Counted from the stretch's first letter, positions 16,587 through 19,794 are shown. The stretch: DNA of 32,000 nucleotides from Methanothermobacter marburgensis str. Marburg (GCF_000145295.1 NC_014408.1:930001-962000), one strand, 5' to 3'. The notes: generated by a model from the sequence alone, not told the origin. Translations and numbers: made by a program.

Positions 16587-18523
16587 ATGAAAATTACCGT
16601 AACCGGGGATATAACGGTTGACTGGATCCAGTGGCCTGTGAGACAGGACTCTGAGGGATCAATGTTCAACTGGAAAACCCACCTTGGATTCAAGAGACGG
16701 GCGCTGGAGGGAGGCGCCCTGCTCACAGCAAGGATGCTTAAAAACCTTGCGGATGTCAACCACCCCTCACTGTCGTGCCGACCTGAGAAAACAGACCCCT
16801 CCGAGTTCATACATTCATTTGCAGAGTTAAAACCCTCAGGTGACGGTTATCACGTGAAGAGGTTCATGGGCTACACAGGACCAGATGAGGGTCTCCCATC
16901 GATGCCATTCAAATTCAGGGACCAGGACGCAGATATTGTCGTTATAGATGATGCAGGGAATGGTTTCAGGGAAATGAAGGAGAGATGGCCCTCAGCCATA
17001 ATTGATGGTGACCCCACCACGGTACTCAAGATGTCATCACCCCTATTCAGCGGCAGCCTCTGGGAGCACCTCCTGGAAAGGCAGCGTGAAAACCTTCTCC
17101 TCATAATAACCATGGAGGACCTCAGGGAGTACGGTGCCAATATAAGCAGGAGGCTCTCCTGGGAGAGAACAGCAGAGGACTTCATGTGGCAGATGAGAAA
17201 CAACCCGACACTTAAGGACATCCAGGATCTCAGAATGATCGTTCGCGTGGGCCTGGAGGGCGCCATATACCATGATGGGGATGATGCCAGGTTATTCTAC
17301 CACCCACAGATATTCGAGGGAAACCTCATCGAGAGGGCCCCTGGTAAAATGCAGGGGTGCGGCTGCGCATTCACGGCAGGACTCACAGCATCGCTGAGCA
17401 GGGGCCTTGAAATTGATGACTCAGTAAGGAGGGGGATGGCTGCTGCCTCTGAACTCCTTTCAATCGGGTTTTCCGAGGAACCCGACTACCCTGTAAGTGA
17501 CATATTCCATTCAGGGGGTGAGAATATTGGGGCCGTTGACATACCCCTCCGCCCCAAGGGTTTCTGGACAATAGCTGACTCACCACCACTATTCGATATA
17601 GAGGCCGTGTCAAGGTACATTGTGATAAACGGTTACAGGAGAAGAAAATGTCCACTTCCTGTTGCACACTTTGGTAAACTCATAACAGCGGACCGTAGGG
17701 AAATTGAGGGCTATCAGAGCATAAGGAATCTGCTGATGGAATACATGAAAAATGAGAACCCTGAAAGACCCCTCTGCATTGGGGTTTTTGGTCCGCCAGG
17801 GGCCGGCAAGTCATTCGCTGTGAGCCAGCTGGCTGCAAGTGTGGACCCTGAGAGAATAAAACCCCTGAACTTCAACATATCCCAGTTCAGGGATGAGGAT
17901 GACCTCATAGACGCCTTTCATCAGATAAGGGATGTGGTACTTGAGGGTATGGTTCCCCAGGCATTCTTTGACGAATTCGACTCACCCATGATGGGTAAAA
18001 GGCTTGGATGGATCAGGTACTTCCTGGCGCCCATGCAGGACGGGGAGTTCAGGGAGGGGGACAGCATGCACCCCTGGGTAAATCCATACTTGTATTTGCA
18101 GGTGGTACAAGCAGCACATTCCAGGAGTTCGAGTCACAGGACCCTGAAATTCTCAGGGAAGCCAAGGTTAGGGACTTCATAAGCAGGCTACGGGGCTATG
18201 TGAATATCATCGGTCCCGATCCACAGCACAGGCGAGACAAATTTTTTATGCTGAGGAGGGCAATACTCTTAAGGTCCATGTTTGAGAGGAAGACCCCACA
18301 CCTCTTTGATGGGGATGGCCGCCTCAGGATCGATGATGGGGTGCTGAATGCATTCCTCAGGATCCCAGAGTACAGGCATGGTGTGAGGTCAATGGAGGCC
18401 ATACTCGAGATGAGCATGCTGCAGGACGTTAAGAAGTTCGAAAAGGCTTCCCTTCCATCAGCTGGGCAGCTGGACCTTCACGTTGATGGGGAACTATTTC
18501 AGAGGATGGTCATGAAGAATTAG
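16587..18523 (+). pseudogene. ribokinase(PfkB)-like domain fused to a classical AAA ATPase; apparent 1-nt frameshift at 18071-18074
   Basis: Two overlapping ORFs (16560-18182 and 18008-18523) join into one protein if a C is added to the C4 run: ...EGDSMHP/LGKSILVFAGGTSS. N-terminal part: MKITVTGDITVDW, GGALLTARML, GCGCAFTAGL (degenerate PfkB signatures). C-terminal part: GPPGAGKSF, FFDEFD, ISRLRGYVNIIGPD. ATG at 16587, preceded by GGTGATGGAG, is the preferred start. Confidence 0.7.
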
Positions 18524-18531
18524 GTGGTAAC

Positions 18532-19794
18532 TTGGAGAGGCGAAGGATTCTCAGACCAGAGGATTACATTGACAGGATCAGGTACCTTAATCTAAGGGCC
18601 GAAAAGTACGCAGAAGCAGGAGACGTAAAAAAAACCGCTGACACACTCTTCAAAATGGGGAGAGAATACCATAAACTTCAGAAGACTGATCTCGCCCTTG
18701 AGAGTTACAGGAACGCCCTTGAACTCTACAGGGAGGAACACGACCCGCGTGAGGCGGATGTATCATTCTGCATGGGCAAGATTTATGAGAGGAAGGGTAA
18801 GCTGAAGCGGGCAGGATGGTTCTACAACCTTGCAGCGTCAGGTTTCAGAAGGGTAAACGATCTCAAAAATGAATCAGAGGCTGTTTTACACAGTGCAAGG
18901 GTTCTTGAAAGGCTCGGGAAGCATGATGAGGCGATTGATGCATATAAACGTTATAATGAGATCTGTCTAAGGAACCAGGAGAAGGTCAAGGTACTTGTTG
19001 CATATGCAAAGATGAAGGAGCTGGAGGATCAGCTCAGTGATGAGTTCCTCAGGTACAACACCTCGGTGCTCCTCCTATACCTTTCCATCCTCGTTATTGC
19101 AGAGTACACAACAACCTTTATAAGCATGAAACTGGGGCTTGTGATTCACACAGTGCTTCTCTTTGCCCTATTTATTCACTCATCACTCTCAAAGAAAAAG
19201 ATGAAGGTTCTCCTTGCCGCCATGATGATGCTTCCCATCATAAGGATCGTGGGACTTTCAATGCCCCTCACAGTTGTAAAGCACCTCTACTGGTACATAA
19301 TAATAGCGGTTCCGCTTTTTGCGGCATCAGCAGCCCTCATGAGAACCCAGAACCTCACAAGGGACGATGCAGGGCTGAACCTGAGGAAATTACGGTGGCA
19401 GGTTGCAGCTGCACTTACAGGTTTCCCCATGGGGTACATTGAATACCAGATACTCAGGCCAGAGGCCCTCATCCCCCATCTCTCAGTTCAGAATTTTATT
19501 CTGGGCTTTACTGTTATGCTCATAGGGACAGGGCTTGCTGAAGAACTCCTCTTCAGGGGAATCGTTCAGAGAAACGCCGAAGATGTTATGGGAAAATTTC
19601 CGGGACTTCTCTATGCATCACTACTATTTACAGCACTTCACGTGGGCTGGAAATCCGGTTACGACCTTATATTCGTCTTCAGCGTTGCAATAGTCTATGG
19701 TCTTGTATTCCAGAGAACAAGGAGTATCGCGGGTATAACTGTATCCCACGGGATATCCAACTCCATACTCTTCCTCGTAATGCCTTTCTTATGA
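18532..19794 (+). CDS. TPR-repeat protein fused to a CPBP-family intramembrane protease
   Basis: 420 aa, TTG start with GGTGG SD, 8 nt after the AAA gene. The N-terminal ~170 aa has TPR-like A/Y/L-spaced helices (ALESYRNALELY..., EAIDAYKRYNEI). The C-terminal part has multiple TM helices with LAEELLFRG, FTALH and SHGISN. Confidence 0.75.
   Translation: MERRRILRPEDYIDRIRYLNLRAEKYAEAGDVKKTADTLFKMGREYHKLQKTDLALESYRNALELYREEHDPREADVSFCMGKIYERKGKLKRAGWFYNLAASGFRRVNDLKNESEAVLHSARVLERLGKHDEAIDAYKRYNEICLRNQEKVKVLVAYAKMKELEDQLSDEFLRYNTSVLLLYLSILVIAEYTTTFISMKLGLVIHTVLLFALFIHSSLSKKKMKVLLAAMMMLPIIRIVGLSMPLTVVKHLYWYIIIAVPLFAASAALMRTQNLTRDDAGLNLRKLRWQVAAALTGFPMGYIEYQILRPEALIPHLSVQNFILGFTVMLIGTGLAEELLFRGIVQRNAEDVMGKFPGLLYASLLFTALHVGWKSGYDLIFVFSVAIVYGLVFQRTRSIAGITVSHGISNSILFLVMPFL

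What the first reader, a model, noticed from the sequence alone, without database searches (positions are those of the whole stretch)
16587..19794. Degenerate ribokinase-fold domain fused to a classical AAA ATPase, coupled to a TPR-CPBP intramembrane protease: candidate undescribed module
Seen: one reading frame, restored across a 1-nt gap at 18071-18074, encodes about 645 aa. The N-terminal ~330 aa starts MKITVTGDITVDW, like the first strand of PfkB/ribokinase-fold kinases. It has GGALLTARML where PfkB signature 1 has GG-x-x-N-x-A. It has KMQGCGCAFTAGL where signature 2 has DT-x-GAGD-x-F-x-x-G, so the catalytic Asp and anion hole are replaced by GCGC. The C-terminal ~300 aa is a single classical AAA module: Walker A GPPGAGKSF, Walker B FFDEFD, ILVFAGGTSS, and ISRLRGYVNIIGPD resembling the R..RFD..I.I..PD region. 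Eight nt downstream (GGTGG SD, TTG start) lies a 420-aa protein with about 170 aa of TPR-like repeats. Its multi-TM CPBP protease domain carries all three motifs (AEELLFRG, FTALH, SHGISN). Inference: a ligand-sensing dead-kinase fold, an unfoldase and a membrane protease together look like a split, ligand-gated FtsH-like proteolytic machine. I know of no characterised system with this architecture. The pair sits between galE and galU, so a sugar phosphate or sugar nucleotide is a plausible ligand.
Basis: partly seen in the sequence, partly recalled or inferred. Interest (0 to 1): 0.75.

Follow-up and report, generated by a model that had tools for sequence, protein, structure and literature searches.

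The report
Dead-kinase AAA+ ATPase beside membrane protease
The frameshifted gene is the Methanothermobacter copy of a large, unstudied family of proteins that fuse a catalytically dead sugar-kinase fold to an ATP-driven motor, but its pairing with the neighbouring membrane protease looks like a genus-specific insertion, not a conserved two-part machine.

Summary
The window is M. marburgensis str. Marburg. One 645-aa gene is broken by loss of one C in a C5 run (18071-18074); other strains and species carry it intact. A confident AlphaFold model (pLDDT 93.6) shows an N-terminal ribokinase/PfkB fold and an AAA+ module with intact Walker A and B motifs. The kinase's catalytic Asp is missing in all 120 aligned homologues. 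The downstream gene is a genuine TPR-CPBP protease.

The fusion belongs to a family of more than 3,400 proteins across bacteria and archaea. Most are about 850 aa and carry a C-terminal RyR domain, which is missing here. I found no characterised member. Their neighbours vary and include TIR, RyR, STAND, Dsr1 and ThsB proteins, but a CPBP occurs only in Methanothermobacter. Methanobacterium-type loci carry galE-TPR-CPBP-galU with no AAA gene, so the AAA gene was inserted next to a protease gene that was already there. It has been disrupted independently in several strains, while the CPBP gene stays intact.

The best reading is a ligand-controlled AAA+ switch related to nucleotide-signalling conflict systems. 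A split FtsH-like protease is unlikely.

The parts
15592..16563 (+). galE (UDP-glucose 4-epimerase). Its stop lies 11 nt before the first ATG of the fusion gene.
   Evidence: ORF. An exact match to ADL58607.1, GalE of M. marburgensis.
16575..18074 (+). First reading frame of the fusion gene (start ATG 16575 or 16587). It covers the ribokinase-fold domain and the first part of the AAA+ module, up to His-Pro.
   Evidence: Annotated as ADL58608.1/WBF09194.1, 531 aa. The intact homologue P0001 starts at the equivalent of 16575.
16587..17591 (+). Ribokinase/PfkB-fold pseudokinase domain (aa 1 to about 335). GD..D and GG sugar-pocket residues are conserved, but the catalytic Asp is absent (KMQGCGCAF at 17346-17372).
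   Evidence: AlphaFold model with pLDDT 93.6. Foldseek hits to PfkB kinases, E 5e-10. Sub-threshold PfkB Pfam hit. Column statistics.
17592..18523 (+). AAA+ ATPase module (restored aa about 336-645). It contains Walker A at 17790-17813, Walker B at 17964-17981, a pre-sensor-1-type hairpin, the SRLRG arginine region and a helical lid. No RyR domain follows.
   Evidence: (ClpB, E 4e-7).
18071..18074 (+). Frameshift site: a run of four C's where intact relatives have five. It falls in the near-invariant His-Pro codons.
   Evidence: A second lineage (L097/L098/L107) is shifted at the same site.
18074..18523 (+). Second reading frame of the fusion gene (LGKSILVFAGG... to the TAG stop). Annotated separately as a 171-aa ORF starting at 18008.
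   Evidence: ADL58609.1.
18532..19794 (+). TPR-CPBP (Rce1-like) glutamic intramembrane protease, 420 aa, TTG start 8 nt after the AAA gene's stop. TPR region about 18532-19041. Motifs: AEELLFRG 19537-19560, FTALH 19627-19641, SHGISN 19744-19761.
   Evidence: Pfam PF02517, E 3e-16, plus TPR families. Motif residues invariant in 53 homologues. ADL58610.1.
19913..20767 (-). galU (UTP-glucose-1-phosphate uridylyltransferase), convergent with the CPBP gene.
   Evidence: ORF. ADL58611.1.

Best explanation
The restored 645-aa gene is the M. marburgensis orthologue of M. thermautotrophicus Delta H AAB85138/O26729. In strain Marburg it is inactivated by loss of one C in a C5 run.

It belongs to a large, uncharacterised family built from three parts:
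- a ribokinase-fold pseudokinase;
- a catalytically intact AAA+ ATPase;
- usually a C-terminal RyR (R12) nucleotide-binding domain, which the Methanothermobacter branch lacks.

I read it as a ligand-controlled AAA+ switch of the type used in nucleotide-signalling conflict (defence-like) systems. A ribose-containing small molecule binds in the conserved sugar pocket of the dead kinase, and in the RyR domain where one is present. That binding controls ATP-dependent assembly or remodelling by the AAA+ module.

It is not one half of a conserved AAA-plus-CPBP protease machine. The gene was inserted, in the ancestor of Methanothermobacter, between galE and a TPR-CPBP gene that already lay between galE and galU. 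It is now probably co-transcribed with them.

Shown: the fold, the motif status, family membership, the distribution of neighbours, the insertion history and the recurrent disruptions.

Inferred: ligand binding, the defence or signalling role and the mode of action.
For: Fold and motifs:
- The model has pLDDT 93.6 and pTM 0.91.
- Its N-domain matches PfkB kinases.
- G11, D12 and G46 are invariant, and D16 and G47 nearly so. The DDAGNGFR and SWE motifs are also invariant or nearly so.
- The GAGD-equivalent catalytic position is never Asp.
- Walker A (GK) and Walker B (DE) and the arginines R538/R540/R605 are invariant.

Family:
- More than 3,400 hits, with full-length 43-48% identity, mostly about 850 aa with PF02026 RyR.
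- The 349 confirmed genome loci span Clostridia, Chlorobiaceae, Acidobacteria, Chloroflexi and methanogens.

Context elsewhere:
- A TIR-AAA-RyR paralogue lies next to the family gene, together with a weakly matching SLATT gene and a further TIR gene.
- TrkA_N-RyR, RelA/SpoT-SLOG-RyR and phosphatase-RyR proteins occur in the neighbourhoods.
- Among immediate neighbours, TIR occurs in 9 of 149, and there are also STAND, DUF4062, Dsr1 and ThsB hits.
- RyR/R12 domains bind or cleave 2'/3' cADPR (PMC13232231).

Insertion history:
- galE-TPR-CPBP-galU occurs without the AAA gene in L099, L108-110 and L134-136.
- The AAA gene is present only in Methanothermobacter-type loci.

Independence of the two genes:
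- The AAA gene is broken in Marburg, in a tenebrarum-like lineage, and in M. wolfeii strains (split at about aa 172). There is also an in-frame 133-aa deletion of the ATPase core.
- The CPBP gene is called at full length (420 aa) in most members of the clusters read.

The ORF is a real gene: dN/dS is about 0.1. The Delta H protein was detected by mass spectrometry in ribosome preparations (PMC4005694).
Against: - No ligand, oligomer or phenotype has been measured for any family member.
- Most family loci (about 80%) have ordinary, unrelated neighbours, so the defence-type context is an enrichment, not a rule.
- The Methanothermobacter proteins lack the RyR domain, which carries most of the signalling argument. 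I saw no TIR or RyR gene in the window.
- Within the genus the gene is inherited vertically at one locus under purifying selection. That is more typical of a domesticated housekeeping function than of a mobile defence gene.
- It has stayed directly upstream of the CPBP gene, 8-72 nt away, in all species examined. A lineage-specific functional link is therefore not excluded.
Confidence: 0.6

Rival explanations
1. One reading: in Methanothermobacter the dead-kinase/AAA protein docks on the cytoplasmic TPR domain of the CPBP. Together they act as a ligand-gated, split FtsH-like proteolytic machine.
For: - The two genes share a strand and lie 8-72 nt apart in every Methanothermobacter lineage examined, at 68-100% identity. 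This holds even where an MFS gene has been inserted between galE and the AAA gene.
- A Shine-Dalgarno-like AGGTGG overlaps the stop codon.
- Both genes are under purifying selection.
- The branch has lost the RyR domain, so a new partner is conceivable.
Against: - The TPR-CPBP gene sat between galE and galU before the AAA gene arrived, as seen in 7 loci without the AAA gene.
- No CPBP adjoins any of the other 74 family loci scanned, and tblastn found none in the 85 other loci then held.
- Of the 83 CPBP loci compared, only the four Methanothermobacter-type ones (L104-L107) contain the AAA gene.
- The AAA gene has been knocked out repeatedly with the CPBP left intact. In one MAG the reverse is seen.
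- The loop after beta-2 (S-Q-F-x-S/D) lacks the aromatic-hydrophobic-Gly pore-loop motif of substrate-threading unfoldases.
Confidence: 0.15
2. The ribokinase-fold domain is an output (effector or enzyme) with a repurposed active site, not a sensor. The AAA+ module and the RyR domain are the regulatory chassis, as in the TIR-AAA-RyR paralogues where TIR occupies the same N-terminal position.
For: - TIR replaces the PfkB-like domain on the same AAA(-RyR) chassis in L004, L028, P0354 and P0370.
- The N-domain carries many invariant polar residues (D12, D125, D126, N129, R132, K152, R184, S195, E197, E248). That is more than a simple binding fold would need.
Against: - The canonical catalytic base and anion hole are lost across the whole family.
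- The TIR variants are rare: three TIR+RyR clusters with full-length (99-100%) coverage among the 120 best hits.
- No alternative chemistry can be named from sequence alone.
Confidence: 0.2
3. The protein regulates or takes part in sugar-nucleotide or cell-envelope metabolism together with galE and galU, sensing a sugar phosphate through the kinase-like fold.
For: - It lies between galE and galU and is probably in one transcript with galE, with an 11-nt gap in Marburg and an overlap in the M. thermautotrophicus type.
- The residues of a ribokinase-type sugar pocket are conserved.
Against: - The galE/galU linkage is a property of the TPR-CPBP gene and predates the AAA gene.
- Of the 149 immediate neighbours outside Methanothermobacter, two match NTP_transferase and no epimerase appears among the commonest families. 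No gal-type linkage recurs.
Confidence: 0.05
4. The frame break is functional: either a programmed -1 ribosomal slip on C_CCC or a phase-variable switch, rather than a dead gene.
For: - A tRNA-Pro slip of -1 on CCCC would re-pair perfectly and give exactly the conserved HPLGK sequence.
- A second lineage is shifted at the same His-Pro site.
Against: - There is no X_XXY_YYZ heptamer.
- All other strains and species encode the protein in one frame with C5.
- The other disruptions lie elsewhere in the gene, which fits plain mutational loss at a slippage-prone tract.
Confidence: 0.05

Closest known systems
PfkB/ribokinase-family kinases (e.g. S. aureus LacC 2jg5, B. cenocepacia HldA 4e84, M. jannaschii nucleoside kinase 2c49)
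   Same: The alpha/beta fold with a beta-sheet lid is shared. So are the N-terminal GD..D strand, the GG dipeptide and the G-x-x-G-A turn. Foldseek gives probability 1.0 and TM-score (target) 0.52-0.58.
   Different: Sequence identity is only 10-16%, and the Pfam score is below the gathering threshold. The DTxGAGD catalytic Asp and anion hole are replaced family-wide by G-(L/V/F)-(T/G/S)-(S/C/A). The family has its own invariant motifs (DDAGNGFR, SWERT). The domain is fused to an AAA+ module.
Clp/Hsp100-type (HCLR) AAA+ ATPases, e.g. ClpB
   Same: ClpB is the best solved structural match for the C-terminal half (4d2x, E 4e-7). Walker A and B motifs, an arginine region and a helical lid are shared. 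The model has a hairpin before the sensor-1 strand.
   Different: There is no significant sequence match to any solved AAA+ protein. The protein has a single ATPase ring domain, no recognisable pore-loop motif, and no protease or substrate-binding partner known.
RyR/R12-domain proteins, including phage RyDEP (PMC13232231)
   Same: Most family members end in a PF02026 RyR domain, with profile E 1e-15 to 1e-30 against solved RyR repeats. RyDEP shows that this domain binds adenine nucleotides and 2'/3' cADPR.
   Different: The Methanothermobacter proteins lack the domain altogether. RyDEP is a small stand-alone phage enzyme, not an ATPase fusion.
TIR-based signalling defence systems (Thoeris and relatives) and NTPase-centred conflict systems (Kaur et al. 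2020/2021, PMC7159879, PMC8195603)
   Same: TIR, ThsB-like, a weakly matching SLATT, SLOG, STAND and DUF4062 genes occur beside a minority of family members. The chassis accepts a TIR domain in place of the kinase fold.
   Different: No obligatory partner gene exists, and most copies stand alone. The family is absent from PADLOC models. Those papers do not contain the words RyR, ribokinase or PfkB. No phage-resistance test exists.
FtsH (AAA protease)
   Same: An ATPase and a membrane-embedded protease are encoded together.
   Different: FtsH is one polypeptide combining a classical-clade AAA domain with a zinc metalloprotease. Here the two genes are separate and were joined only in one genus. 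The protease is a glutamic CPBP type, and the ATPase has no pore loop.
CPBP/Rce1-like intramembrane proteases (PF02517)
   Same: The downstream protein scores well above threshold and keeps the EExxxR, FxxxH and HxxxN motifs.
   Different: It has an N-terminal cytoplasmic TPR domain of about 170 aa. That architecture is shared by about 275 proteins, the named ones mostly from Methanobacteriales and some Methanomicrobiales. Its substrates are unknown.

Membership tests
PfkB/ribokinase carbohydrate-kinase family (PF00294) | Ribokinase-like three-layer alpha/beta fold with a beta-sheet lid | tested here: met
   AlphaFold model with pLDDT 93.6. The top 45 Foldseek PDB hits are all PfkB-family kinases, E 5e-10 to 3e-7.
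PfkB/ribokinase carbohydrate-kinase family (PF00294) | Profile match above Pfam's gathering score | tested here: not met
   17.9 bits against a cut-off of 25.8. Only residues 218-289 match.
PfkB/ribokinase carbohydrate-kinase family (PF00294) | Signature 2 (DTxGAGD): catalytic Asp and anion hole | tested here: not met
   The aligned position is S51/C28/A25/N8 in 120 sequences and never D. The preceding Ala is replaced by L, V, F or Y.
PfkB/ribokinase carbohydrate-kinase family (PF00294) | Signature 1 GG dipeptide and N-terminal Asp of the sugar pocket | tested here: met
   G46 is invariant and G47 is present in 111 of 120. D12 is invariant and D16 is present in 109 of 120. The equivalence to ribokinase residues rests on motif alignment and my own knowledge of E. 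coli RbsK, not on a structural superposition.
AAA+ ATPases | Walker A GxxGxGK[ST], Walker B hhhhDE, arginine finger region, C-terminal helical lid | tested here: met
   The core of GPPG(S/A)GKS (P408, G409, G411, K412) and FFDEFD are invariant, as are R538 and R605; R540 is R in 119 of 120. The model shows five helices after beta-5. ClpB structural hit, E 4e-7.
Classical AAA clade (PF00004; FtsH/Cdc48/katanin type) | Profile match above the gathering score, and no pre-sensor-1 hairpin | tested here: not met
   18.7 bits against a cut-off of 21.2 for this protein. Some homologues carry a precomputed PF00004 hit. The model has helix 480-489 and then strands 491-494 and 497-500 before the sensor-1 strand 505-509. 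The clade call rests on a predicted model.
Substrate-threading unfoldases | Pore loop 1 with an aromatic-hydrophobic-Gly motif after beta-2 | tested here: not met
   The loop is N-x-S-Q-F-x-(S/D) with no Gly. The assignment of this loop comes from the model's secondary structure.
RyR-domain AAA family ('RyR domain-containing protein' in NCBI annotation) | Full-length homology over the kinase-fold and AAA parts | tested here: met
   41-50% identity over 98-100% of the query for the non-Methanothermobacter hits among the 120 listed. E down to 1e-192.
RyR-domain AAA family ('RyR domain-containing protein' in NCBI annotation) | C-terminal PF02026 RyR domain | tested here: not met
   The protein ends right after the AAA lid (...HVDGELFQRMVMKN). 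There is no RyR hit. Other archaeal members of 675-703 aa also lack it.
   A CPBP is adjacent only in Methanothermobacter. None of the other 74 family loci has one. Seven loci have galE-TPR-CPBP-galU without the AAA gene.
CPBP/Rce1-like glutamic intramembrane proteases (PF02517) | Profile above threshold plus the EExxxR, FxxxH and HxxxN motifs | tested here: met
   59.8 bits against a cut-off of 22.4. E337, E338, R342, F366, H370, H406 and N410 are invariant in 53 homologues.
Known anti-phage defence systems (PADLOC-DB v2) | Match to a defence-protein model | tested here: not met
   Only QatA (E 0.002) and mad8 (E 0.05), both around the P-loop.
Thoeris-like TIR signalling systems | A TIR signal producer encoded with a sensor-effector, and protection against phage | not testable with these tools
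   TIR or ThsB-like neighbours occur in a minority of loci elsewhere. I saw none in the window around the gene. Phenotype cannot be tested here.

The most novel reading that the evidence does not exclude
The ribokinase-fold pseudokinase + AAA+ + RyR proteins form a previously undescribed, widespread class of nucleotide-signal (ADPR/cADPR-type) receptors or executors in prokaryotic immunity. There are thousands of members across bacteria and archaea, and one fungal cluster. In Methanothermobacter a RyR-less copy has been domesticated and wired to a TPR-CPBP intramembrane protease as a lineage-specific, ligand-gated proteolytic switch.
Probability: 0.12. Interest if true: 0.8.

Novelty: new variant of a known kind. 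Interest (0 to 1): 0.45.

Why it matters
The fusion family is large and strongly conserved, with about 60 invariant positions across bacteria and archaea. As far as I could find, it is entirely unstudied.

A 2026 preprint shows that RyR/R12 domains recognise cyclic ADP-ribose immune signals. Cellular proteins that couple this domain to an ATPase and a dead sugar kinase are therefore obvious candidates for signal receptors. This makes a concrete hypothesis testable with purified protein.

For the window itself the result is mainly a correction:
- The attractive 'split FtsH-like machine' is probably a historical juxtaposition.
- The gene is a strain-specific pseudogene in the widely used Marburg laboratory strain.
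- Anyone studying this gene should use Delta H or another strain that carries it intact.

Tried and rejected
- A single-sequence AlphaFold run of the AAA half alone failed (pLDDT 32).

Searches that found little:
- Sequence and profile searches of the PDB returned only RyR-domain hits and marginal PfkB/ThiD hits.
- tblastn with the CPBP against the 86 loci then held found it only in M. tenebrarum.
- A viral-contig scan gave a single hit, so this is not a phage family.
- Literature searches for RyR plus AAA, ribokinase, SLATT or TIR, and for the locus names, found no description of the family. The only mention was an incidental proteomic detection of O26729.

Leads not adopted:
- NCBI labels some fragments 'KAP family NTPase', and Pfam gives weak Torsin, KAP, nSTAND5 and Virul_Fac hits. 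All are sub-threshold and confined to the P-loop, so I did not use them.
- The bacterial sigma-70 promoter and terminator scan does not apply to an archaeon and showed nothing above shuffles.
- I considered a programmed frameshift and rejected it as the main reading. There is no slippery heptamer, and all other strains are in frame.

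
Full report
**1. What is in the sequence**

The window is from Methanothermobacter marburgensis str. Marburg. Its galE, the two ORF fragments, the CPBP gene and galU are exact matches to ADL58607-ADL58611.

Two overlapping ORFs, 16560/16587..18182 and 18008..18523, are two frames of one gene. They join at CACCCCTGGG, where the C run is at 18071-18074. Re-reading one C gives a 645-aa protein with the junction ...GDSMHP|LGKSILVFAGG.

Four metagenome contigs that are 98-99% identical have five C's here and encode an intact 649-aa protein, P0001. Intact orthologues exist in:
- M. thermautotrophicus Delta H (AAB85138, UniProt O26729, 643 aa);
- M. defluvii, M. wolfeii and M. 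tenebrarum;
- strains DP, THM-2 and KEPCO-1, each with an intact 645-aa protein, and strain K4, for which the adjacent intact CPBP and galU were listed.

Two M. marburgensis genome records carry the same truncated 531-aa product. The frameshift is therefore most simply a real, strain-specific mutation in a slippage-prone homopolymer.

The downstream gene starts with TTG at 18532, 8 nt after the stop, with AGGTGG overlapping the stop.

**2. The fusion protein**

Pfam and NCBIfam give only sub-threshold hits: PfkB at aa 218-289 (E 2e-3) and AAA at aa 400-466 (E 2e-3).

An AlphaFold2 model built on 120 homologues is confident (pLDDT 93.6, pTM 0.91). In a Foldseek search of the PDB the first 45 hits are PfkB-family kinases. 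These include LacC/1-PFK, HldA, ribokinases, ketohexokinase and M. jannaschii nucleoside kinase, with E from 5e-10, probability 1.0 and TM-score (target) 0.52-0.58. ClpB follows for the C-terminal half at E 4e-7.

In the 120-sequence alignment:
- The sugar-pocket residues are conserved: G11, D12 and G46 are invariant, and D16 and G47 nearly so.
- The family has its own invariant motifs, DDAGNGFR and SWE(R)T.
- The position of the ribokinase catalytic Asp is S, C, A or N and never D. The anion-hole Ala is replaced by a bulky residue.

The ATPase looks active. The core of GPPG(S/A)GKS, FFDEFD and the arginines R538 and R605 are invariant, and R540 nearly so.

Its topology in the model is: Walker B strand, helix 480-489, a beta-hairpin at 491-500, then the sensor-1 strand. 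That is the arrangement of AAA+ proteins with a pre-sensor-1 hairpin, the Clp/Lon/RuvB type, and not the classical FtsH/Cdc48 clade. This clade reading is an inference from a predicted model. The loop after beta-2, S-Q-F-x-(S/D), has no aromatic-hydrophobic-Gly pore-loop motif.

The frameshift falls in the near-invariant His-Pro of the hairpin.

**3. The family**

The restored protein has more than 3,400 homologues. The non-Methanothermobacter hits listed align over 98-100% of the query at 41-50% identity. Most are about 850 aa and end in a PF02026 RyR domain. Source names include 'RyR domain-containing protein', 'AAA family ATPase' and 'hypothetical protein'.

A genome scan confirmed 349 loci in Clostridia, Chlorobiaceae, Acidobacteria, Chloroflexi, Planctomycetes and methanogens. 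One cluster is from the fungus Hortaea werneckii. Only one viral contig matched.

RyR-less versions occur in several archaeal lineages: Methanothermobacter, Methanobacterium oryzae and Methanomassiliicoccales.

I found no paper describing the family. Two pieces of literature are relevant:
- O26729 was seen by mass spectrometry cross-linked to aminoacyl-tRNA synthetases in M. thermautotrophicus ribosome preparations and was not followed up (PMC4005694). This shows that the protein is made.

**4. Neighbours of the family elsewhere**

I called the ORFs immediately upstream and downstream in 75 non-redundant loci and scanned them against Pfam and PADLOC.

There is no constant partner. Recurrent families are:
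- TIR (6 downstream, 3 upstream);
- TPR (6 downstream, 2 upstream);
- RyR (4 downstream, 3 upstream);
- AAA_16/NACHT STAND proteins and DUF4062;
- single strong hits to Dsr1 (E 5e-250) and ThsB (E 7e-51).

One Methanobacteriaceae locus reads: SLATT (weak hit), kinase-fold-AAA-RyR, TIR-AAA-RyR, TIR. The second protein there shares the AAA module at 40-41% identity and the RyR domain at 83%.

Other neighbours within 8 kb include:
- TrkA_N-RyR proteins of about 600 aa, in seven loci;
- a RelA/SpoT-SLOG-RyR protein;
- a phosphatase-RyR protein;
- a TIR-AAA protein.

TIR-AAA-RyR proteins are rare: three TIR+RyR clusters with full-length coverage among the best 120 hits.

About four fifths of loci have unremarkable neighbours such as MCPs, TetR regulators, flavodoxins and transporters.

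A Rce1-like/CPBP neighbour occurs only in the M. tenebrarum locus.

**5. The TPR-CPBP gene and the history of the locus**

The 420-aa protein is a true CPBP: PF02517 at 59.8 bits, with EExxxR, FxxxH and HxxxN invariant in 53 homologues. The TPR-CPBP architecture has about 275 members; the named ones are mostly from Methanobacteriales, with some Methanomicrobiales.

Within Methanothermobacter the order galE, AAA, TPR-CPBP, galU(-) holds in all lineages examined. In the tenebrarum type an MFS gene sits between galE and the AAA gene.

Outside the genus I compared 83 CPBP loci: 80 from the metagenome scan and three looked up earlier.
- Seven of them (M. alcaliphilum L099, L108-110, L134-136) have galE directly followed by TPR-CPBP and a convergent galU, with no AAA gene.
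- The other non-Methanothermobacter loci have TPR-CPBP or plain CPBP genes in other settings.
- Only the four Methanothermobacter-type loci (L104-L107) contain the AAA gene.

The simplest history is that galE-TPR-CPBP-galU is ancestral in Methanobacteriales, and the AAA gene was inserted upstream of the CPBP gene in the Methanothermobacter ancestor. The link to sugar-nucleotide genes therefore belongs to the CPBP gene.

**6. Selection and decay**

Between species, dN/dS is about 0.09-0.10 for the AAA gene. It is 0.07-0.13 for the CPBP gene and 0.12-0.15 for galE. dS is near saturation, so these values are rough. The gene is thus maintained over the long term.

Even so, it has been disrupted independently several times:
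- Marburg: C5 to C4.
- A tenebrarum-like lineage seen in loci L097, L098 and L107 (at least two samples): 4 nt shorter at the same His-Pro site, giving ORFs of 501 + 169 aa.
- M. wolfeii strains: split at about aa 172.
- A 512-aa form on 36 contigs: an in-frame 133-aa deletion that removes Walker B through the arginine region.
- Strain THM-1: both of the last two lesions.

The CPBP gene is called at 420 aa in most members of the clusters read. The one clear disruption is a MAG with a frameshift in an A9 run, and there the AAA gene is intact.

The two genes therefore fail independently of each other.

**7. Interpretation**

*Shown:*
- the fold;
- loss of the kinase catalytic residues;
- intact ATPase motifs;
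- membership of a large uncharacterised family that usually carries a RyR domain;
- variable neighbourhoods, partly of defence type;
- a genus-restricted adjacency to a CPBP gene that was there first.

*Inferred:* The family acts as a ligand-controlled AAA+ switch in nucleotide signalling or conflict systems. The dead kinase pocket, and RyR where present, would bind a ribose-containing ligand.

*Sensor or output?* A variant reading treats the kinase fold as an output domain, because TIR can take its place. This remains open.

It lacks comparative support and lacks a pore loop. I give it about 0.15.

*Programmed frameshift.* This is unlikely.

**8. Novelty and verdict**

The family appears undescribed. 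It fits the known theme of NTPase-centred, nucleotide-sensing conflict proteins with swappable domains, so I rate it a new variant of a known kind. Interest is moderate at 0.45. The specific module claim fails, but the family is a good, testable lead.

Noticed in passing
window 15299-15487: Three tandem copies of a 63-nt unit (100%, 98% and 76% identity). The unit contains the start codon, the first ~12 codons and the upstream region of the EamA-family gene on the minus strand (14917-15336). It lies in the spacer before galE. A closely related metagenome contig has two copies, and M. thermautotrophicus-type loci have one; no match was reported in the M. wolfeii-type loci, which do contain the EamA gene.
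   Followed up: partly
window 19722-19789 and 19816-19883: The last 68 nt of the CPBP gene, minus its stop codon, are duplicated 94 nt downstream at 99% identity, in the spacer before galU. Three of the four metagenome contigs that carry the intact gene end inside the second copy, so it breaks assemblies. Other Methanothermobacter species have only a single copy.
   Followed up: partly
L097/L098/L107 (tenebrarum-like lineage); P0304-P0311 (M. wolfeii, strains THM-1 and DSM 3267): The AAA fusion gene has been disrupted independently in several lineages. One is a second frameshift at exactly the same His-Pro C-rich site. Another is a split at about aa 172. A third is an in-frame 133-aa deletion that removes Walker B through the arginine finger. 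The CPBP gene next door stays intact in all of these.
   Followed up: yes
L099, L108-L110, L134-L136: galE, TPR-CPBP and a convergent galU form a block that is conserved across Methanobacterium-type genomes and Methanothermobacter. This suggests that the TPR-CPBP protease itself is tied to sugar-nucleotide or envelope functions.
   Followed up: partly
window 11759-12586 (- strand): A second, shorter Rce1-like/CPBP gene without a TPR domain lies about 6 kb upstream of the pair. It was called as 221 aa with PF02517 on the matching metagenome contig L088.
   Followed up: no
L006, L042, L045, L048, L049, L054, L063, L077: Near family members lies a set of other RyR-domain fusion proteins: TrkA_N-RyR (about 600 aa, seven loci), RelA/SpoT-SLOG-RyR and dual-specificity-phosphatase-RyR. 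Together they look like an uncharted RyR-centred signalling network.
   Followed up: partly
L004 8718-10700 (= L007 10718-12700): A TIR-AAA-RyR paralogue sits directly downstream of the kinase-fold-AAA-RyR gene. The two RyR domains are 83% identical although the AAA modules are only 40-41% identical, which suggests recent exchange of the RyR domain between the two genes.
   Followed up: partly
P0418 (Hortaea werneckii, 869 aa, 35 member sequences): A fungal protein cluster annotated as a RyR-domain protein matches the AAA-RyR chassis at 31% identity over 71% of the TIR-AAA-RyR query. The family may therefore reach into eukaryotes.
   Followed up: no
L102 5574-6816: In one Methanothermobacter MAG the TPR-CPBP gene is split (121 + 271 aa) by a frameshift in a run of nine A's, while the AAA gene is intact. 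This could be an assembly error or a real lesion.
   Followed up: partly
O26729 (Delta H orthologue), PMC4005694: The orthologous ~70 kDa protein was identified by MALDI MS/MS cross-linked to aminoacyl-tRNA synthetases in ribosome preparations of M. thermautotrophicus. The authors did not pursue it. It may mean that the protein travels in a large complex.
   Followed up: no
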